A stretch of DNA of 40,708 nt from Przondovirus NAN33P2. Location of the stretch: the sequence record OZ035820.1; one strand, 5' to 3'. Positions 2,688 to 9,000 of the stretch are shown here, in pieces (positions within the stretch are counted from its first letter, which is position 1; each line of letters begins with the position of its first letter). A program made the position numbers and the translations under genes. The notes beneath the pieces are model-generated. The model saw only the letters and a list, made by a program, of their open reading frames with translations, was not told the origin of the DNA and ran no database searches.

Positions 2688-2828
2688 GACCCCTAAAGAC
2701 TTACTATAAGACTACTTAAAGTTTCATTCATATAGTTATGCACTATAGGTCTCCTCTATGAGAGAGGGTAGTAATGATAATATCACCCTCTAACTATAAG
2801 ACACTAAGAGCTAACACAAGGAGGACCT

Positions 2829-2978
2829 ATGCGCTTACTGTTAACCTTACTGCGCCATAGGACTACTTGGCGGTTTCTGCTGGTACTTGCTGGTGCCCTT
2901 GGGGCTTCACTGGTTACTCAGCAACAACTCGGTGGACTGGAGACTCTCGTGTGCTCTCTACTCGCTTGTAGCGATTAG
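2829..2978 (+). CDS. Small hypothetical protein at the gene 19.5 position
   Basis: 49-aa ORF (MRLLLTLLRH...LACSD) preceded by AAGGAGG; same size and position as T7 gene 19.5; sequence homology not verified. Confidence 0.35.
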   Translation: MRLLLTLLRHRTTWRFLLVLAGALGASLVTQQQLGGLETLVCSLLACSD

Positions 2979-3161
2979 GGTCTTCCTTACGCGCTAGGGA
3001 TTCCGTAGTGATGCTTATCAGCATACACCACTCCATCCCTCTACAGTCAATACTTAAAGTTAACCTTAGGTGATTCGCTGGTCTACCTACGGGTCTATGC
3101 AATGACCTGAGGACTACCTGAGGTTACCTTTAAGAATTTTACATAAAGTTCTGAGTGTACA

Positions 3162-3342
3162 TCTCACAGTTTAAACTTTTGGTTATCCCCCCGGTACCCT
3201 CTCAGTCCACCCAAAGTAACCATGGGGCCACCCTAAACCTTCGGTTTAACCTTAGGTCGGTACCTTGGGAATCCTGAGGTGATACTATATGTTGTGGTGA
3301 GGGTGACTCAATGACGCTATATGTTGATGCCTCTGTGTCCCT
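3162..3342 (+). repeat. Terminal repeat region of the linear virion DNA (one copy in this circular assembly); boundaries approximate
   Basis: Begins with TCTCACAGT, the recalled first bases of the T7 genome, and ends at CCTCTGTGTCCCT, resembling the recalled end of the T7 terminal repeat (CTCTGTGTCCCT); flanked on both sides by short-repeat arrays. Confidence 0.45.
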
Positions 3343-3576
3343 ATCTGTTGGGCCTCTTTAAGTATACACCTGAGGTTAGACCTGAGGTCATCCATTGACG
3401 CTATGCCTTAGGTTAACCGTTTGACTAACGTTTAGCAGTGACTGTTAGTAGGTCACATAGAGTGATCAATCAAGTATCTCGTTTAGCAGTCCCTGAGACA
3501 CTGAGAGCGGGACAATATGGGTATCAGTGAGTCATTACTATAAGGGCTATCGGTGGTCAGTGTCAACACCGTAATC

Positions 3577-3599
3577 AATTAGGTATCACTATAAGGAGA
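3577..3599 (+). promoter_or_regulatory. Phage RNAP promoter variant (phiOL-like)
   Basis: AATTAGGTATCACTATAAGGAGA; carries the same TATAAGGAGA variant as recalled T7 phiOL and lies just upstream of the host-type early promoters. Confidence 0.55.
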
Positions 3600-3679
3600 C
3601 ACTCTAAGTATTACTACGAGACCATTACCAATAAGAACACTATCACTATAGGTCTAACTAAAAGTTTTAACTTTAAGTG

Positions 3680-3715
3680 TTGACATTCAGATTCCGTTAT
3701 GAGACATTAGCAACC
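3680..3715 (+). promoter_or_regulatory. Candidate host sigma70 early promoter (A1-like)
   Basis: Perfect -35 TTGACA at 3680-3685; -10 is poor (GACATT or ACATTA at 17-18 bp spacing); position about 86 bp after phiOL parallels T7 A1. Confidence 0.3.
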
Positions 3716-3812
3716 GTTGAGAGACACAACGTCACCAACGACCAGACAATACCACGAGTTATCTGGTTAGACTGAGGGTCTCAAGTAGCTATCAACCGGC
3801 ATACGAAAATGG

Positions 3813-3841
3813 TTGACTCAACGATGAACAAGTAGTAAGAT
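3813..3841 (+). promoter_or_regulatory. Host sigma70 early promoter (A2/A3-like)
   Basis: TTGACT (3813-3818), 17-bp spacer, TAAGAT (3836-3841); resembles recalled T7 A2 (-10 TAAGAT). Confidence 0.55.
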
Positions 3842-4009
3842 GCACCACAGATTCACCGCTCTTTAACAATATGGATTAGTCAAAGCTGATATGTACACCA
3901 TGACATTAGTGTTTAACTAGTGGTTACATTCAGGTCTCTGGCAAGGTACGTCCTGTCACCCTGAGAGTAGCCACCTTGATAACCACTAATCAACTGAAGG
4001 ATATACATT

Positions 4010-4477
4010 ATGATTTTCACGAAAGAACCAGCCAACAAAGTATTCGTATTCGTTACCGCATACCGTGGCCATGAGTCGCAGGAAGTAAACGAGAAGATGC
4101 TCAAGGGTCTCATTAAGACCATTCGCACCTATCCGGGTGCATACGGCAACATTCGTGACGAGAACGTGCAAGGCTGCTTTAAGGAAGATGGTATGCCTGC
4201 GGCAACACAAGAACGCACGCTCAAGGTCGAATGTACTGAGAAGCAAGCCGCAGAGTTGACATGGCTGGCCTGTAAGACCTACTCGCAGGATGCCGTGCTG
4301 GTGGTGAACTCACAGACCCATACAGCAGCTCTGTGGTCTATTGAGGATGTAGGCGAGTATCCACAGGTCTACCCACGCTTGAAAGAGGTGTCCTTAGGTG
4401 GCACGCTGCAACAAGTGGATGCACCAAAGGGAGAATGCTATTCAGTCATCAACGGGCAGTACTGGGAGGTGGTGTAA
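4010..4477 (+). CDS. gp0.3: S-adenosylmethionine lyase / SAMase (anti-restriction), T3 gene 0.3 type
   Basis: 155 aa; first early gene; N-terminus MIFTKEPAN and internal QTHTA match recalled T3 SAMase; RBS GAAGGA. Confidence 0.7.
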   Translation: MIFTKEPANKVFVFVTAYRGHESQEVNEKMLKGLIKTIRTYPGAYGNIRDENVQGCFKEDGMPAATQERTLKVECTEKQAAELTWLACKTYSQDAVLVVNSQTHTAALWSIEDVGEYPQVYPRLKEVSLGGTLQQVDAPKGECYSVINGQYWEVV

Positions 4478-4677
4478 TGGGTAAGCTGCTAGCGATATCC
4501 AAAATAACAGGGCAATGCACTGTAACACTACGGGAGTACTCACACGGTGCAATGGGGAGTACCTACACTGTGCGGCACGGTAAGCAGGTAAAACACTGGG
4601 TCAACGAGAGACTAGCTCAGGAGGATTATCAATCATGCGTCATACATCAATCAACTTGCGCTGGGTGGAATGACTGA
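4477..4677 (+). CDS. Hypothetical small early protein
   Basis: 66-aa ORF from ATG overlapping the 0.3 stop (TAATGG) after GGAGG; part of a chain of overlapping small early ORFs; no recognised homology. Confidence 0.35.
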   Translation: MGKLLAISKITGQCTVTLREYSHGAMGSTYTVRHGKQVKHWVNERLAQEDYQSCVIHQSTCAGWND

Positions 4678-4823
4678 TGAAACACTACGGACTCACTCAG
4701 GCAGACATAAGGCACTATCGCTGGTTGTTATCCTTAGGTAGACCGCACGATTACTTAATGATGCACCTCGCGCAAACTTATCGCACACATAAGGTAATGT
4801 ATGATAACCCTGTTCGTAATTAG
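4677..4823 (+). CDS. Hypothetical small early protein
   Basis: 48-aa ORF starting at ATGA overlap with the preceding ORF; basic protein; no recognised homology. Confidence 0.25.
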   Translation: MKHYGLTQADIRHYRWLLSLGRPHDYLMMHLAQTYRTHKVMYDNPVRN

Positions 4824-4998
4824 TGTGTACGCCCTGATTGTCCTGTACTTTGTGCAGGACTTTCTCAAGGGTCTCAAGGTACACAAGGCATCGTTTAGTT
4901 ACCTGAAGTGGGGCTTCTTGCCTCGCTTCACTGTACGTTTACATAATGGCCGCTTTAAGGCTAACAAAGTGGGGATATTCTATGTTGCAACGCATTAA
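4801..4998 (+). CDS. Hypothetical small membrane protein
   Basis: 65 aa with strongly hydrophobic N-terminus (ITLFVISVYALIVLYFV); position analogous to T7 0.4-0.6 small early genes. Confidence 0.35.
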   Translation: MITLFVISVYALIVLYFVQDFLKGLKVHKASFSYLKWGFLPRFTVRLHNGRFKANKVGIFYVATH

Positions 4999-5161
4999 CA
5001 ACCGAGTCTACCGGGACAAGCATGGGATCGTCATAGTGCACATCATAAGGTACGATTGCTACGTCTATGCAGACACCTGCGAATCATTGCCGTACTACCC
5101 AAGCGCTAACACTCGCAAGACGTGGGAGCGCATTGGCACTAACCTGAAGTTTACCGATTGA
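4982..5161 (+). CDS. Hypothetical small early protein
   Basis: 59-aa ORF from internal ATG of the six-frame ORF 4946..5161, overlapping the end of the preceding ORF; start uncertain. Confidence 0.25.
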   Translation: MLQRINNRVYRDKHGIVIVHIIRYDCYVYADTCESLPYYPSANTRKTWERIGTNLKFTD

Positions 5162-5196
5162 CACACTCACATCAACCACCATAAGGAAACAATCAA

Positions 5197-6210
5197 ATGA
5201 ACTACACCGACATGCAAGAACGCTTAGACGTCATCCGCAACCTACCAATCTGTGAACTCGACAAGCGCCAGCCGCTGCTGGTAGCACTCATCGCTGACAT
5301 TGTGAACTATGAGACGTCCGACGGTGACGATACGGATAGCGATTGGGGTCTGGAACGTCAGGACTATTGGCAAACCCTGAAGATTAAGGCCAAAGACGCT
5401 GGGTTCAACCTACTAGGCAATGGTCACTTCAGCGCAGCGTTTAAGCACGAGCTGCTACCGGGTAGGGTCATTAAGGTTGGCTTTAAGAAAGAGGACTCAG
5501 GGGCCGCCTACGTGGCTTTCTGCCGGATGCACCAAGGTAGGGTAGGGATTCCTAACGTCTATCACGTAGCGCGTCACGCTGGCTGCTACACGGTGGTGCT
5601 AGACGAGCTTGAGCCTTGTCAACGCTTCGACAACGAGACGCACGAGCATTACGCAGACCTTGCTAACTACTTTGTGGAGAACTCTGGTGCAGAGCTGGGC
5701 GATGTTGACGGTGCAGAGAAGGAATTACACTTCGTCGAGACGTGCCAAATGATTAACAAGTTCTTCCACGGGATTGCATCCTTTGACATGCACAGCGGTA
5801 ACATTATGTTCACCAAAGACGGCAAGCCAGTAATAACCGACCCGGTGTCATTCTCGAAGGACCGCGAACGTGAGCCTTTCTCACTGGAACCTAATGTACT
5901 GATTGCAGAGATTGAGCAGATAGCGCACGACAAGATGATTGAACGCTGTAAGCGCAACAAGGCAAAGCGTGACCCGAACGGGGAGCTGCGCATCGCACGT
6001 CGTAAGGCAAATAAGGAGCGCAGAGCACGTCGTAAGGCACACGCTATGTGGCGTAAGGAGCGCGAACGGATTAACGCCGAGGCCCTAAAGGTTGACCTTG
6101 CGAAAGTCGAGGAGCGGGTACTGGCATGGCAGGTGGGACCCGGCCTAGCGATACAGCAGGGAAAGCCTTTACCTATCGATAACTATCTTCAGGGTAGACT
6201 CATGGGCTAA
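5197..6210 (+). CDS. gp0.7: Serine/threonine protein kinase (host shut-off), gene 0.7-like
   Basis: 337 aa; immediately upstream of gene 1; kinase-like N-terminal half and basic C-terminal tail (RRKANKERRARRKAH); assignment by position and size relative to T7/T3 gp0.7. Confidence 0.65.
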   Translation: MNYTDMQERLDVIRNLPICELDKRQPLLVALIADIVNYETSDGDDTDSDWGLERQDYWQTLKIKAKDAGFNLLGNGHFSAAFKHELLPGRVIKVGFKKEDSGAAYVAFCRMHQGRVGIPNVYHVARHAGCYTVVLDELEPCQRFDNETHEHYADLANYFVENSGAELGDVDGAEKELHFVETCQMINKFFHGIASFDMHSGNIMFTKDGKPVITDPVSFSKDREREPFSLEPNVLIAEIEQIAHDKMIERCKRNKAKRDPNGELRIARRKANKERRARRKAHAMWRKERERINAEALKVDLAKVEERVLAWQVGPGLAIQQGKPLPIDNYLQGRLMG

Positions 6211-6279
6211 CAAGGTGTATCTTCGGTGTCTCTGATACGAGGCACCCATAGATAAACTTTATCCACAAAGAGGCACACA

Positions 6280-9000
6280 ATGAACGCATTAAACATTGCA
6301 CGTAATGACTTCTCAGAGATTGAACTGGCCGCTATCCCGTATAATATCCTCAGCGAGCACTATGGGGACAAGCTGGCACGCGAGCAGCTGGCACTGGAGC
6401 ATGAAGCGTACGAGCTGGGCGAGCAGCGTTTCCTGAAGATGCTGGAACGTCAGGTGAAAGCTGGTGAGTTCGCTGACAACGTGGCTGCTAAGCCGCTGGT
6501 CCTAACGTTGCACCCGCAGCTGACCAAGCGTATTGACGACTGGAAGGAGGAGCAGGCAAACGCACGCGGTAAGAAACCTCGCGCATACTACCCGATTACG
6601 CACGGTGTGTCCTCAGAGTTGGCCCTCAGTATGGGCGCTGAGGTTCTCAAAGAGAAGCGTGGAGTGTCCAGTGAGGCAATCGCACTGCTCACCATTAAGG
6701 TGGTCTTAGGGACGCTCACAGACGCCGCAAAGGCCACAATCCAGCAGGTGTCCTCACAGTTAGGCAAGGCCCTTGAGGATGAGGCCCGCTTCGGTCGTAT
6801 CCGTGAGCAGGAAGCCGCATACTTCAAGAAGAACGTAGCGGACCAGCTGGACAAGCGCGTAGGCCACGTGTACAAGAAGGCTTTCATGCAGGTCGTCGAG
6901 GCCGATATGATATCCAAAGGGATGCTGGGCGGGGACAACTGGGCGAGCTGGAAAACTGACGAGCAGATGCACGTAGGGACCAAGCTGCTGGAGCTACTTA
7001 TCGAGGGAACTGGTCTGGTGGAAATGACCAAGAACAAGATGGCCGATGGCTCCGATGATGTGACCAGTATGCAGATGGTCCAGCTGGCTCCGGCCTTTGT
7101 GGAACTCCTGAGCAAGCGAGCGGGCGCACTCGCAGGTATCAGCCCGATGCACCAACCGTGCGTAGTCCCTCCGAAACCTTGGGTGGAGACCGTAGGCGGT
7201 GGCTACTGGTCAGTCGGTCGTCGCCCGCTGGCACTGGTTCGTACCCACTCCAAGAAGGCACTGCGCCGCTACGCAGACGTGCACATGCCAGAGGTATACA
7301 AAGCGGTAAACCTCGCGCAAAACACACCGTGGAAGGTGAACAAGAAGGTGTTGGCGGTAGTCAATGAGATTGTTAACTGGAAGCACTGCCCGGTGGCTGA
7401 CGTTCCAGCGATTGAACGTGAAGAGTTACCACCGCGCCCGGACGATATCGACACCAACGAGGTGGCACGTAAGGCATGGCGCAAGGAGGCCGCGGCGGTC
7501 TACCGTAAGGACAAGGCCCGCCAGTCTCGCCGTTTGTCGATGGAGTTCATGGTCGCACAGGCCAACAAGTTCGCTAACCACAAGGCCATCTGGTTCCCGT
7601 ATAACATGGACTGGCGCGGGCGTGTGTACGCTGTGAGCATGTTCAACCCGCAGGGTAACGACATGACCAAGGGTATGCTGACGCTGGCCAAGGGTAAGCC
7701 GATTGGTCTAGACGGGTTCTACTGGCTGAAGATTCATGGTGCAAACTGTGCAGGCGTCGACAAGGTTCCCTTCCCTGAGCGCATCAAGTTCATCGAAGAG
7801 AACGAGGGCAACATTCTGGCGAGTGCAGCTGACCCGCTGAATAACACTTGGTGGACACAGCAAGATTCACCGTTCTGCTTCTTAGCGTTCTGCTTCGAGT
7901 ACGCAGGCGTTAAACACCACGGCCTGAATTACAACTGCTCGCTGCCTCTGGCGTTCGATGGATCATGCTCTGGGATTCAGCACTTCAGCGCAATGCTCCG
8001 CGATTCCATCGGTGGCCGTGCGGTAAACCTGCTGCCATCTGATACCGTGCAGGATATCTACAAGATTGTGGCCGATAAGGTCAACGAGGTGCTCCAGCAG
8101 CACGCTGTCAACGGGTCTCAAACGGTGGTCGAGCAGATTGCCGACAAGGAGACTGGTGAGTTCCGCGAGAAGGTAACGCTGGGTGAGTCCGTACTTGCTG
8201 CGCAGTGGCTGCAATATGGTGTTACCCGCAAGGTGACTAAGCGTTCGGTAATGACGTTGGCGTATGGTTCCAAAGAGTTTGGCTTCCGCCAGCAAGTTCT
8301 TGAGGATACCATTCAGCCAGCTATTGACAACGGCGAGGGCTTGATGTTTACGCACCCTAACCAAGCGGCTGGCTATATGGCTAAGCTGATTTGGGACGCT
8401 GTGACCGTGACCGTAGTGGCCGCTGTCGAGGCAATGAATTGGCTGAAGTCTGCCGCTAAACTGCTGGCCGCTGAAGTCAAGGACAAGAAGACCAAAGAGG
8501 TGCTCCGTAAGCGCTGCGCAATCCACTGGGTAACACCAGACGGCTTCCCGGTGTGGCAGGAATACCACAAGCGAGATCAAGCGCGCCTGAAGCTGACGTT
8601 CTTGGGTCAGGCCAACGTGTTCATGACGTACAACAAAGGGGAAGCCAAAGAGATTGACGCACATAAGCAGGAGTCAGGAATCGCTCCTAACTTTGTGCAC
8701 TCACAGGATGGTAGTCACCTGCGCATGACCGTAGTGCACGCCAACGAGGTCTACGGGATTGACTCCTTCGCGCTCATTCATGACTCCTTCGGGACCATTC
8801 CAGCAGACGCTGGGAATCTCTTTAAGGCAGTCCGTGAGACGATGGTCAAGACCTACGAGGATAACGATGTAATCGCTGACTTTTATGACCAGTTCGCTGA
8901 CCAGCTGCACGAGTCTCAACTGGACAAAATGCCTGCTGTCCCGGCCAAAGGTGACCTGAATCTGCGCGATATCTTAGAGTCTGACTTCGCGTTCGCCTAA
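6280..9000 (+). CDS. gp1: Single-subunit DNA-dependent RNA polymerase
   Basis: 906 aa; collinear with recalled T7 RNAP (MN..NIA.NDFS.IELAAIP, RGKKP, PFCFLAFCFEYAG, HDSFGT, final FAFA); about 20 extra residues in the N-terminal domain; length equals my recollection for K11 RNAP. Confidence 0.95.
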   Translation: MNALNIARNDFSEIELAAIPYNILSEHYGDKLAREQLALEHEAYELGEQRFLKMLERQVKAGEFADNVAAKPLVLTLHPQLTKRIDDWKEEQANARGKKPRAYYPITHGVSSELALSMGAEVLKEKRGVSSEAIALLTIKVVLGTLTDAAKATIQQVSSQLGKALEDEARFGRIREQEAAYFKKNVADQLDKRVGHVYKKAFMQVVEADMISKGMLGGDNWASWKTDEQMHVGTKLLELLIEGTGLVEMTKNKMADGSDDVTSMQMVQLAPAFVELLSKRAGALAGISPMHQPCVVPPKPWVETVGGGYWSVGRRPLALVRTHSKKALRRYADVHMPEVYKAVNLAQNTPWKVNKKVLAVVNEIVNWKHCPVADVPAIEREELPPRPDDIDTNEVARKAWRKEAAAVYRKDKARQSRRLSMEFMVAQANKFANHKAIWFPYNMDWRGRVYAVSMFNPQGNDMTKGMLTLAKGKPIGLDGFYWLKIHGANCAGVDKVPFPERIKFIEENEGNILASAADPLNNTWWTQQDSPFCFLAFCFEYAGVKHHGLNYNCSLPLAFDGSCSGIQHFSAMLRDSIGGRAVNLLPSDTVQDIYKIVADKVNEVLQQHAVNGSQTVVEQIADKETGEFREKVTLGESVLAAQWLQYGVTRKVTKRSVMTLAYGSKEFGFRQQVLEDTIQPAIDNGEGLMFTHPNQAAGYMAKLIWDAVTVTVVAAVEAMNWLKSAAKLLAAEVKDKKTKEVLRKRCAIHWVTPDGFPVWQEYHKRDQARLKLTFLGQANVFMTYNKGEAKEIDAHKQESGIAPNFVHSQDGSHLRMTVVHANEVYGIDSFALIHDSFGTIPADAGNLFKAVRETMVKTYEDNDVIADFYDQFADQLHESQLDKMPAVPAKGDLNLRDILESDFAFA

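What the first reader, a model, noticed from the sequence alone, without database searches (positions are those of the whole stretch)
4010..5161. Early anti-host cluster: T3-type SAM lyase followed by four overlapping small ORFs
Gene 0.3 here is the T3-type SAM-degrading enzyme rather than the T7 Ocr DNA mimic. It is followed by a chain of small ORFs (66, 48, 65 and 59 aa) joined by overlapping stop/start codons (TAATG, ATGA), one with a hydrophobic N-terminus. Such early small proteins are usually host-takeover or anti-defence factors and are among the least conserved parts of T7-like genomes.
Basis: partly seen in the sequence, partly recalled or inferred. Interest (0 to 1): 0.45.

Follow-up and report, generated by a model that had tools for sequence, protein, structure and literature searches.

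The report
Standard early operon of Klebsiella T7-like phage
This is the ordinary early gene block of a Klebsiella T7-like phage, and nearly all of it has already been annotated in published phage genomes: a T3-type SAM-degrading enzyme followed by four real small genes, three of which match genes already named in related phages.

Summary
Gene 0.3 (4010-4477) is a T3-type SAM lyase, not Ocr. It is followed on the same strand by four small ORFs of 66, 48, 65 and 59 aa. All five have Shine-Dalgarno sequences. Nearly all homologues are intact (0.3 30/32, ORF3 18/19, ORF4 62/65, ORF2 and ORF5 all), and median dN/dS is 0.06-0.19.

The window is a circularly permuted Przondovirus (K11/KP32-like) genome, and 372 GenBank phage records match this stretch.

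- **ORF2** is gene 0.45 of phiYeO3-12 (82% identity).
- **ORF3** is gp0.4, as annotated in K11. It belongs to the family of the T7 FtsZ inhibitor, and 5 of 6 FtsZ-contact residues are kept or conservatively changed.
- **ORF4** is gp0.6A of T3/K11, with an N-terminal membrane helix.
- **ORF5** is an accessory gene restricted to Klebsiella/Enterobacter phages. It sits in the slot and +1 frame that T3 uses for gene 0.65.

Only the first two junctions are one-base stop/start overlaps (TAATG, TGATG). The other two are 23- and 17-nt overlaps.

The functions of gp0.45, gp0.6A and ORF5 remain unknown. The cluster is ordinary and of low interest. The one mildly notable point is how strongly gp0.45 is conserved across genera.

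The parts
3680..3716 (+). Host (sigma-70) early promoter, A1-like
   Evidence: Differs at one base from the 'host RNAP promoter' annotated in K11 at 581-617 (sequence). Function is inferred from the K11 annotation.
3813..3849 (+). Host (sigma-70) early promoter, A2/A3-like (TTGACT-17-TAAGAT)
   Evidence: Found by the promoter scan with 9 of 12 matches. Differs at one base from the K11 host promoter at 715-751.
3905..3991 (+). Long imperfect hairpin about 19 nt upstream of gene 0.3, at the position of RNase III site R0.3 in T3 and phiYeO3-12
   Evidence: Seen in the minimum-free-energy and centroid folds. The equivalent position is annotated as R0.3 in T3 and phiYeO3-12. The z-score of the whole 173-nt stretch is only -1.17, so this is positional inference only. 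There is no Rfam match.
4010..4477 (+). Gene 0.3: S-adenosylmethionine lyase (T3 SAMase type), 155 aa
   Evidence: PF23780 E 3.5e-37. PDB 7ock/8bb1 E 2.4e-26. Residues E68, Q93, D94, G55 and the MetK-contact residues I2, T4, K5, Q102, T103, H104 are conserved; T3 Y57 is F57 here. dN/dS 0.085. 88% identical to K11 gp0.3.
4477..4677 (+). ORF2: homologue of gene 0.45 of phiYeO3-12, 66 aa, function unknown
   Evidence: 54 of 66 residues (82%) identical to phiYeO3-12 gp0.45. phrog_6500 E 2e-40. dN/dS 0.06 with saturated dS. The AF2 model is four beta strands plus a C-terminal helix, pLDDT 85 in 1 of 5 models. BFVD models of uncharacterised phage proteins share the fold at TM about 0.8.
4677..4823 (+). 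ORF3: gp0.4 homologue (family of the T7 FtsZ inhibitor), 48 aa
   Evidence: 56% identical to the protein annotated gp0.4 in K11. T7 gp0.4 hits phrog_5058, which is ORF3's family, at E 9e-5, and both hit phrog_25044 in register. hhalign E 5e-5, ungapped 2-40 against 6-44. A bridging sequence occurs in L082. The gene occupies the same slot after 0.3.
4801..4998 (+). ORF4: gp0.6(A) of the T3/K11 type, 65 aa, N-terminal transmembrane helix and basic C-terminal part
   Evidence: 64.6% identical to T3 gp0.6 and 89% to K11 gp0.6A. phrog_2385 E 1.5e-27. Kyte-Doolittle 19-residue mean 2.28 at residue 1, pI 10.4. A TMD is reported for the gene 0.6 product of phage AP5, which is 98.5% identical to its phiYeO3-12 counterpart (PMC4283147). 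Present in 73 of the loci fetched; dN/dS 0.13.
4982..5161 (+). ORF5: accessory early gene of Klebsiella/Enterobacter phages (Przondovirus-type records), 59 aa, function unknown
5197..6210 (+). Gene 0.7: serine/threonine protein kinase (downstream boundary of the cluster)
   Evidence: phrog_2828 E 4e-172. 49.6% identical to T7 gp0.7 and 88% to the K11 kinase.
6280..9000 (+). Gene 1: single-subunit phage RNA polymerase (end of the host-transcribed early region)
   Evidence: A 906-aa ORF. The equivalent position is annotated as RNA polymerase in K11, KpV767 and phiTH1.

Best explanation
This is the class I (host-transcribed) early operon of a Przondovirus-type T7-like Klebsiella phage.

Transcription and translation:
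- Host RNA polymerase starts at two A-type promoters, 3680-3716 and 3813-3849.
- The transcript carries an R0.3-like hairpin and then a gap-free run of genes: 0.3, 0.45, 0.4, 0.6A, ORF5. After 35 nt come the 0.7 kinase and the phage RNA polymerase.
- The one-base or short out-of-frame overlaps, each with its own Shine-Dalgarno sequence, imply translational coupling (inferred).

Proposed roles:
- Gp0.3 cleaves SAM to MTA and homoserine lactone, and probably also binds the SAM synthase MetK. This starves SAM-dependent type I restriction and BREX. The role is inferred from conserved catalytic and MetK-contact residues; activity was not measured.
- ORF3 (gp0.4) most likely binds FtsZ at the synergy-loop surface and blocks cell division, as T7 gp0.4 does. 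This is inferred from family membership and conserved contact residues.
- ORF4 (gp0.6A) is a small inner-membrane-anchored basic protein of unknown target.
- ORF2 (gp0.45) and ORF5 are small soluble proteins of unknown function. Most likely they bind host proteins; this is speculative.

Across relatives the region is a mosaic of exchangeable cassettes:
- the first slot holds either the SAM lyase or an Ocr-like gene;
- gp0.45 is present or absent;
- the last slot holds ORF5, a T3 0.65-like gene, or nothing.
For: Identity of the phage and the region:
- 372 phage records match, nearly all Klebsiella phages of about 40 kb.
- phiTH1 has the same five-gene layout.
- K11 annotates 0.3, gp0.4, gp0.6A, the kinase and the RNAP in the same order, and its host promoters match the window almost exactly.

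SAM lyase:
- Pfam, PDB and T3 matches.
- Residues shown by mutagenesis to matter in T3 SAMase (E68, Q94, D95; MetK contacts T4, Q103, T104, H105: bioRxiv 10.1101/2023.02.27.530186; PMC7877911) are all conserved in the window and in all 48 relatives.

gp0.4:
- Reciprocal PHROG hits, hhalign E 5e-5, an intermediate sequence and shared synteny.
- The T7 gp0.4 residues needed for FtsZ binding are V15, V22, W28, M32, L35, Y39 (PMC13423816). They align without gaps to I11, L18, H24, M28, L31, Y35.

Other genes:
- gp0.45: 82% identity to the annotated phiYeO3-12 gene.
- gp0.6A.
- Purifying selection and intact ORFs for all five genes.
- Cassette mosaic: among 54 loci whose kinase is at least 79% identical, 34 carry the SAM lyase, 16 an Ocr-like gene, 5 carry gp0.45, 6 an ORF5-like gene and 16 a T3 0.65-like gene.
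Against: - No activity or expression data exist for this phage.
- The Tyr that stacks on the sulfonium in Svi3-3 (Y58; T3 Y57) is Phe here and in 36 of 48 relatives. Svi3-3 Y58F lost about five-fold activity.
- T7 gp0.4 W28, whose W28L and W28A changes abolish FtsZ binding, is His in ORF3.
- The gp0.4 link rests on weak profile scores (hhalign probability 68%).
- The structure models for ORF2 and ORF5 were confident in only one of five AF2 models, and fold matches give no function.
- The hairpin upstream of 0.3 is not statistically unusual (z -1.17).
Confidence: 0.88

Rival explanations
1. ORF5 is not made as a separate 59-aa protein. Instead it is the C-terminal part of a roughly 120-aa fusion produced by a +1 ribosomal frameshift near the end of ORF4. 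This is what was proposed for gp0.6B of T7 and phiYeO3-12.
For: ORF5 lies in the +1 frame relative to ORF4 and overlaps its last 17 nt. Its frame is open from 4907. The geometry matches T7 0.6A/0.6B and the phiYeO3-12 entry annotated 'putative +1 frameshift afford gp0.6B'. The 3' end of gene 0.6 is conserved at the DNA level between T3, phiYeO3-12 and the window.
Against: ORF5 has its own ATG, where T3 0.65 uses a TTG one codon downstream, and a GGGGA Shine-Dalgarno sequence 7 nt upstream. All database homologues are called as 59-aa proteins starting at this Met. I saw no recognisable +1 shift-prone motif in the overlap (my reading of the sequence). In relatives the slot holds unrelated sequences or nothing while ORF4 stays the same, which fits an independent cassette better than a domain of one protein.
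Confidence: 0.1
2. ORF3 is a gp0.4 relative by descent but no longer inhibits FtsZ. It has been retargeted to another host protein, or serves another function.
For: It is only 26% identical to T7 gp0.4. W28, which is essential in T7, is His24 here. The family is very variable within Przondovirus (36-94% identity, with 48-aa and 60-aa forms), as expected for a protein under an arms race. None of the six T7 residues needed to trigger CapRel-Ebc (A12, T14, L16, S19, R23, K36) is conserved.
Against: Three of the six FtsZ-contact residues are identical (M, L, Y) and two are conservative (V to I, V to L). The M-x2-L-x3-Y face is kept by the window's ORF3 and by almost all Przondovirus variants (two of 45 have Met at the Leu position). 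The position four residues before that Met is always aromatic or His. From general knowledge, not tested here, FtsZ is nearly identical between E. coli and Klebsiella.
Confidence: 0.3
3. Some or all of the four small ORFs are chance open frames, or decayed remnants in a non-coding leader region.
For: They are short (48-66 aa). None of the four has a match in the local Pfam or NCBIfam libraries. Two of them overlap their neighbours out of frame.
Against: Nearly all distinct homologues are intact (15/15, 18/19, 62/65 and 6/6). dN/dS is 0.06-0.19 with dS up to saturation. Each gives an end-to-end PHROG match and has a Shine-Dalgarno sequence. Homologues are annotated as genes in K11, T3 and phiYeO3-12.
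Confidence: 0.02

Closest known systems
Klebsiella phage K11 early region (genes 0.3, 0.4, 0.6A, 0.7, 1; NC_011043), with near-identical layouts in phiTH1 and KpV767
   Same: Same genus-level phage and same gene order. Protein identities are 88% (0.3), 56% (0.4), 89% (0.6A) and 88% (0.7). The host promoters are almost identical. phiTH1 has the same five-ORF chain with the same overlaps.
   Different: K11 lacks ORF2 (gp0.45) and ORF5. The window's gp0.4 belongs to a different sequence subtype from K11's.
T3 SAMase / SAM lyase (gp0.3; PDB 7ock, 8bb1; Pfam PF23780)
   Same: Same family and length. The N-terminal MetK-binding tail MIFTKEPAN is identical. E68, Q-D and the Q-T-H loop are conserved.
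   Different: Only 38.6% identical overall. Y57 is F. The gene is directly coupled to the next gene, whereas T3 has an RNase III site (R0.5) after 0.3.
T7 gp0.4, the FtsZ polymerisation inhibitor and trigger of CapRel-Ebc (PMC13423816)
   Same: Same slot after 0.3 and similar size (48 against 51 aa). The YGLT motif and the M-x2-L-x3-Y face that contacts FtsZ are shared. Profile-level homology is detectable.
   Different: 26% identity. W28 is replaced by His. None of the residues needed for CapRel-Ebc activation is conserved. FtsZ binding is untested.
phiYeO3-12 gene 0.45 (also annotated in phiSG-JL2 and Citrobacter phages)
   Same: 82% identical and the same 66-aa length, in the early region.
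   Different: In phiYeO3-12 it follows an RNase III site and precedes 0.6A directly. In T7-like contigs it lies after 0.4. Here it lies before 0.4, coupled to the stop codon of 0.3.
T3 gene 0.65 / phiYeO3-12 and T7 '0.6B'
   Same: ORF5 occupies the same slot, overlaps the end of gene 0.6 in the same +1 frame, and starts within one codon of the T3 0.65 start.
   Different: The protein sequences are unrelated: different PHROGs, no BLAST match, and a beta-rich prediction for ORF5.

Membership tests
S-adenosylmethionine lyase family (Pfam PF23780; T3 SAMase, Svi3-3) | Sequence matches the family profile above the curated threshold | tested here: met
   127.8 bits against a gathering score of 28, covering profile positions 1-132 of 133. 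T3 SAMase structure chains score E 2.4e-26.
S-adenosylmethionine lyase family (Pfam PF23780; T3 SAMase, Svi3-3) | Substrate-positioning Glu (Svi3-3 E69 / T3 E68), Gln-acid pair (Q104-E105 / Q94-D95) and Gly (G56 / G55) | tested here: met
   The window has E68, Q93-D94 and G55. All are invariant in 48 relatives. The residue roles come from PMC7877911 and bioRxiv 10.1101/2023.02.27.530186.
S-adenosylmethionine lyase family (Pfam PF23780; T3 SAMase, Svi3-3) | Aromatic Tyr stacking on the sulfonium (Svi3-3 Y58 / T3 Y57) | tested here: inconclusive
   It is Phe57 in the window and in 36 of 48 relatives. Phe can still make the cation-pi contact. Svi3-3 Y58F kept about 20% activity, and the proton relay was calculated to be dispensable.
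S-adenosylmethionine lyase family (Pfam PF23780; T3 SAMase, Svi3-3) | Cleaves SAM to MTA plus homoserine lactone | not testable with these tools
   Needs an enzyme assay.
T3 SAMase MetK-binding subtype | N-terminal tail (I2, T4, K5) and beta4-beta5 loop Q-T-H that contact MetK | tested here: met
   I2, T4, K5, Q102, T103 and H104 are present. They are invariant or nearly so in relatives. The contacts are described. Binding itself was not tested.
Ocr (T7 gp0.3 DNA mimic) | Sequence similarity to Ocr | tested here: not met
   There is no BLAST match between window gp0.3 and T7 Ocr. Ocr-like genes fill this slot in 16 of 54 related loci but not here.
T7 gp0.4 family (FtsZ inhibitor) | Detectable homology to T7 gp0.4 | tested here: met
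   T7 gp0.4 hits phrog_5058 (ORF3's family) at E 9e-5. Both hit phrog_25044 in register. hhalign E 5e-5, probability 68%. L082 supplies a bridging sequence. The K11 homologue is annotated gp0.4.
T7 gp0.4 family (FtsZ inhibitor) | FtsZ-contact residues V15, V22, W28, M32, L35, Y39 | tested here: inconclusive
   They align to I11, L18, H24, M28, L31, Y35: three identical, two conservative, and W to H.
T7 gp0.4 family (FtsZ inhibitor) | Binds FtsZ and blocks division | not testable with these tools
   Needs toxicity, filamentation and binding assays.
gp0.45 (phiYeO3-12 type; phrog_6500) | Full-length similarity to the annotated 0.45 protein, in an early-region location | tested here: met
   54 of 66 residues identical without gaps. 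phrog_6500 E 2e-40 over positions 1-66 of 66. The gene lies between 0.3 and 0.7.
gp0.6(A) of T3 / phiYeO3-12 / K11 (phrog_2385) | Full-length similarity and an N-terminal transmembrane segment | tested here: met
   64.6% identity to T3 gp0.6 and 89% to K11 gp0.6A. Hydropathy 2.28 over residues 1-19.
T7 gp0.6A (reported MreB inhibitor; phrog_8393) | Homology to T7 gp0.6A | tested here: not met
   There are no cross-hits between phrog_2385 and phrog_8393 at E up to 1. The only match is 13 residues at the C-terminus (E 0.07 in a nine-sequence database). T7 gp0.6A has no hydrophobic N-terminus.
T3 gp0.65 / gp0.6B C-terminal part (phrog_10380) | Sequence similarity of ORF5 to gp0.65 | tested here: not met
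   No BLAST match and different PHROGs. Only the slot, the frame and the first few codons correspond.

The most novel reading that the evidence does not exclude
gp0.45 (ORF2) may be an uncharacterised inhibitor of a highly conserved host protein, either a host-takeover or an anti-defence factor.

Support for strong constraint:
- It keeps 76-83% amino-acid identity between Przondovirus, Teetrevirus and Teseptimavirus-like phages whose kinases are only about 50% identical and whose SAM lyases are about 37% identical.
- Synonymous sites are saturated, so this is constraint, not recent transfer.
- It belongs to a wider family of roughly 60-aa phage proteins with an invariant G...A...H...C signature and a shared predicted fold. 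None of these has a known function.

Separately, ORF5 could be a Klebsiella-specific counter-defence cassette that alternates with gp0.65.
Probability: 0.3. Interest if true: 0.45.

Novelty: already known. Interest (0 to 1): 0.15.

Why it matters
For genome annotation, the analysis lets three of the four 'hypothetical proteins' be named: gp0.45, gp0.4 and gp0.6A.

It suggests two testable properties of this Klebsiella phage. It probably evades type I restriction and BREX by depleting SAM. It probably blocks host division through FtsZ.

This has modest relevance for choosing therapeutic Klebsiella phages. Relatives carry either the SAM lyase or an Ocr-like gene, which should change which host defences they overcome.

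Nothing here opens a new question. The exception is the unknown role of the strongly conserved gp0.45 family.

Tried and rejected
- **Pfam and NCBIfam on the four small ORFs:** no significant match. Homologues of ORF3 carry a precomputed PF26807.1 tag, but that model is not in the local Pfam copy. A literature search for it found nothing, so its name could not be checked.
- **Rfam on 2800-6400, both strands:** no match at E up to 1. The terminator scan found none.
- **Zinc-finger idea for ORF2:** the Cys residues vary among close relatives, so a classical zinc site is unlikely. In the wider family H57 and C61 are invariant and C54 mostly kept, which is left unexplained.
- **Homology of ORF4 to the T7 MreB inhibitor gp0.6A:** rejected at the profile level.
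- **Homology of ORF5 to T3 gp0.65 or to DUF4222:** only sub-threshold hits (E 0.07 in Pfam, 0.001 for phrog_1343 over 19 residues).
- **Distant-relative locus search with alignment A3:** failed because no conserved stretch was long enough.
- **Association of gp0.45 with the SAM lyase rather than Ocr:** 5 of 5 in Przondovirus loci, but it co-occurs with Ocr in T7-like contigs, so there is no real link.
- **+1 frameshift site in the ORF4/ORF5 overlap:** no convincing shift-prone motif seen.
Full report
**What is in the sequence.** Between 4010 and 5161 the + strand carries five consecutive ORFs with no intergenic space:
- 4010-4477: 155 aa
- 4477-4677: 66 aa
- 4677-4823: 48 aa
- 4801-4998: 65 aa
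- 4982-5161: 59 aa

After a 35-nt gap come a 337-aa protein kinase (5197-6210) and a 906-aa single-subunit RNA polymerase (6280-9000).

The junctions need a small correction. The first two are one-base overlaps, TAATG and TGATG (not ATGA). The last two are 23-nt and 17-nt overlaps, with the downstream gene in the +1 frame. Every start codon is preceded by a purine-rich Shine-Dalgarno-like element.

**Are the ORFs real genes?** Yes.
- Each of the four small ORFs matches a PHROG family from end to end (E 1e-22 to 2e-40).
- I collected about 95 related loci from IMG/VR and GenBank. Nearly all distinct homologues keep the reading frame and stop: 30/32, 15/15, 18/19, 62/65 and 6/6.
- Nei-Gojobori dN/dS against the window has medians of 0.085 (0.3), 0.06 (66 aa), 0.13 (48 aa), 0.13 (65 aa) and 0.19 (59 aa). 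The neighbouring kinase gives 0.20.

Chance ORFs are excluded.

**What phage this is.**
- A megablast of 3900-5250 finds 372 phage records, almost all Klebsiella phages of about 40 kb. Many are classified as Przondovirus, and the best matches are about 91-92% identical.
- The left end of the K11 genome aligns to window position about 3162, so the window is a circularly permuted complete genome.
- The two host-RNA-polymerase promoters annotated in K11 recur almost base for base at 3680-3716 and 3813-3849. A phiOL-like phage promoter lies at 3578-3600.
- A long hairpin at 3905-3991 sits where T3 and phiYeO3-12 annotate RNase III site R0.3. Its folding energy is not statistically unusual, and Rfam has no matching family.

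The finding is therefore the class I early operon of a T7-like phage, transcribed by the host polymerase.

**Gene 0.3.** It is a T3-type SAM lyase.
- Pfam PF23780 scores 127.8 bits against a threshold of 28.
- It is 38.6% identical to T3 gp0.3 and has no match to Ocr.
- The only significant solved relative is the T3 SAM lyase in complex with MetK (7ock/8bb1, E 2e-26).
- Mutagenesis papers identify the important T3 residues: E68, Q94 and D95 for positioning SAM, and T4, Q103, T104 and H105 with the N-terminal tail for binding the SAM synthase MetK. All are conserved in the window and in all 48 relatives aligned.
- One deviation exists. The Tyr that stacks on the sulfonium (Svi3-3 Y58, T3 Y57) is Phe here and in 36 of 48 relatives. 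The equivalent Svi3-3 Y58F mutant kept about a fifth of its activity, so I expect an active enzyme. This is inference.

The mechanism proposed is the one shown for T3: SAM cleavage plus MetK inhibition, which disables type I restriction and BREX.

**The 66-aa ORF (ORF2).** It is 82% identical, without gaps, to the protein annotated as gene 0.45 in Yersinia phage phiYeO3-12. The same name is used in phiSG-JL2 and Citrobacter phages.
- It is sporadic in Przondovirus relatives (5 of 54 loci). It also occurs in T7-like and T3-like contigs, where it lies after gene 0.4 rather than before it.
- It keeps 76-83% identity between genera whose kinases are about 50% identical, while synonymous sites are saturated (dS above 1.5). 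This indicates long-term strong constraint, not recent transfer.
- A profile search of 1.8 billion representatives finds only 29 proteins. About 26 of them are 60-120 aa proteins matched over most of the profile, sharing G, A, H and C invariants. None has a Pfam family.
- AlphaFold2 gives four beta strands plus a C-terminal helix, at pLDDT 85 but in only one of five models.

Its function stays unknown. My best guess is a host-protein binder.

**The 48-aa ORF (ORF3).** K11 annotates its homologue (56% identical) as gp0.4. I tested the link to T7 gp0.4 directly.
- T7 gp0.4 hits ORF3's PHROG at E 9e-5, and both proteins hit a third PHROG in the same register.
- hhalign of the two families gives E 5e-5, ungapped.
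- A T7-like contig (L082) encodes a protein with the T7-type N-terminus and the Przondovirus-type C-terminus.
- The genes share the slot after 0.3.
- A 2026 paper shows that T7 gp0.4 binds the synergy-loop face of FtsZ through V15, V22, W28, M32, L35 and Y39 (PMC13423816). These align to I11, L18, H24, M28, L31 and Y35.

ORF3 is therefore a member of the gp0.4 family and most likely an FtsZ inhibitor (about 0.55-0.6). The W-to-H change leaves room for altered affinity or retargeting. None of the residues needed to trigger the CapRel-Ebc defence is conserved.

**The 65-aa ORF (ORF4).** It is gp0.6 of T3 (64.6% identity) and gp0.6A of K11 (89%). It is nearly universal in the relatives. It has an N-terminal transmembrane helix followed by a basic domain, and a TMD is also reported for the gene 0.6 product of phage AP5, which is 98.5% identical to its phiYeO3-12 counterpart. 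It is not demonstrably homologous to T7 gp0.6A, the reported MreB inhibitor. Only the last 13 residues resemble each other, and the profiles do not cross-match. An MreB role should therefore not be assumed.

**The 59-aa ORF (ORF5).**
- It has only six clusters of relatives among 5.8 billion proteins and occurs in 74 GenBank phage records, all Klebsiella or Enterobacter phages of about 39-41 kb.
- It occupies the slot that T3 uses for gene 0.65, and that phiYeO3-12 and T7 annotate as the +1-frameshift product gp0.6B. It overlaps the end of gene 0.6 in the same +1 frame and starts one codon upstream of the T3 0.65 TTG start.
- The protein is nevertheless unrelated to gp0.65.
- Because it has its own ATG and Shine-Dalgarno sequence, and the slot content varies while gene 0.6 stays constant, I favour independent initiation. 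I give the frameshift-fusion rival about 0.1.
- Its predicted fold is a low-confidence small beta barrel with no informative match.

**Comparative picture.** Among 54 loci whose kinase is at least 79% identical to the window's:

| Slot | Content | Loci |
|---|---|---|
| First | SAM lyase | 34 |
| First | Ocr-like gene (47-51% identical to T7 Ocr) | 16 |
| First | Not determined | 4 |
| Optional | gp0.45 | 5 |
| Last | ORF5-like gene | 6 |
| Last | T3 0.65-like gene | 16 |
| Last | Neither | remainder |

Homologues of gp0.4 and gp0.6A are nearly always present. The region is thus a mosaic of exchangeable cassettes built from conserved genes.

**Verdict.** This check adds four things:
- names for three of the four small ORFs;
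- residue-level support for an active, MetK-binding SAM lyase and for a probable FtsZ inhibitor;
- a correction of the junction description;
- the note that gp0.45 is unusually conserved yet uncharacterised.

Interest is low (0.15).

Noticed in passing
window 3162-3340 and 2660-2800: The window is a circularly permuted whole genome. Position 1 of the K11 genome aligns to about 3162 (84% over 902 nt), so the physical genome end and terminal repeat lie there. Four phage-promoter-like cores (ACTATAGG or ACTATAAG) cluster at 2676-2800 near the right genome end.
   Followed up: partly
window 3578-3600: The sequence AATTAGGTATCACTATAAGGAGA closely resembles the K11 phiOL phage-polymerase promoter (AATTAGGACACACTATAGGGAGA). 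It lies upstream of the host promoters, as in K11, T3 and T7.
   Followed up: partly
related loci L018-L097 (gene 0.3 slot): Closely related Przondovirus contigs carry either the SAM lyase (34 of 54) or an Ocr-like gene (16 of 54) in the same first slot. Two contigs (L058, L064) have a divergent SAM lyase only 45-46% identical to the window's.
   Followed up: partly
related loci, gp0.4 slot (for example L010, L033, L082): The gp0.4 family comes in a 48-aa form and a 60-aa form with a 12-residue insertion between the two predicted helices. A T7-like contig (L082) has a chimeric-looking version with a T7-type N-terminus and a Przondovirus-type C-terminus.
   Followed up: partly
window 4477-4677 and homologues P0030-P0057: The wider gp0.45 family has invariant G35, A47, H57 and C61, and a mostly conserved C54, spaced C-x2-H-x3-C. 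In the window protein's model these positions fall in the C-terminal helix. Yet the Cys residues vary among the closest relatives. No explanation was found.
   Followed up: partly
L001, L002, L018 against window 4477-4677: The three closest relatives of ORF2 show dN about equal to dS (7 non-synonymous to 4 synonymous changes, 10 to 3, and 11 to 3). More distant ones give dN/dS of about 0.05. The numbers are too small to interpret.
   Followed up: no
window 4010-4477, residue 57: The Tyr of the SAM lyase active site (T3 Y57, Svi3-3 Y58) is Phe in this phage and in 36 of 48 relatives. This is a lineage-wide substitution at a residue discussed as mechanistically relevant.
   Followed up: yes
proteins P0022-P0029 (homologues of window 4677-4823): These homologues carry a precomputed Pfam tag, PF26807.1. 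That model is absent from the local Pfam library and from the searchable literature, so its name and description could not be checked.
   Followed up: partly
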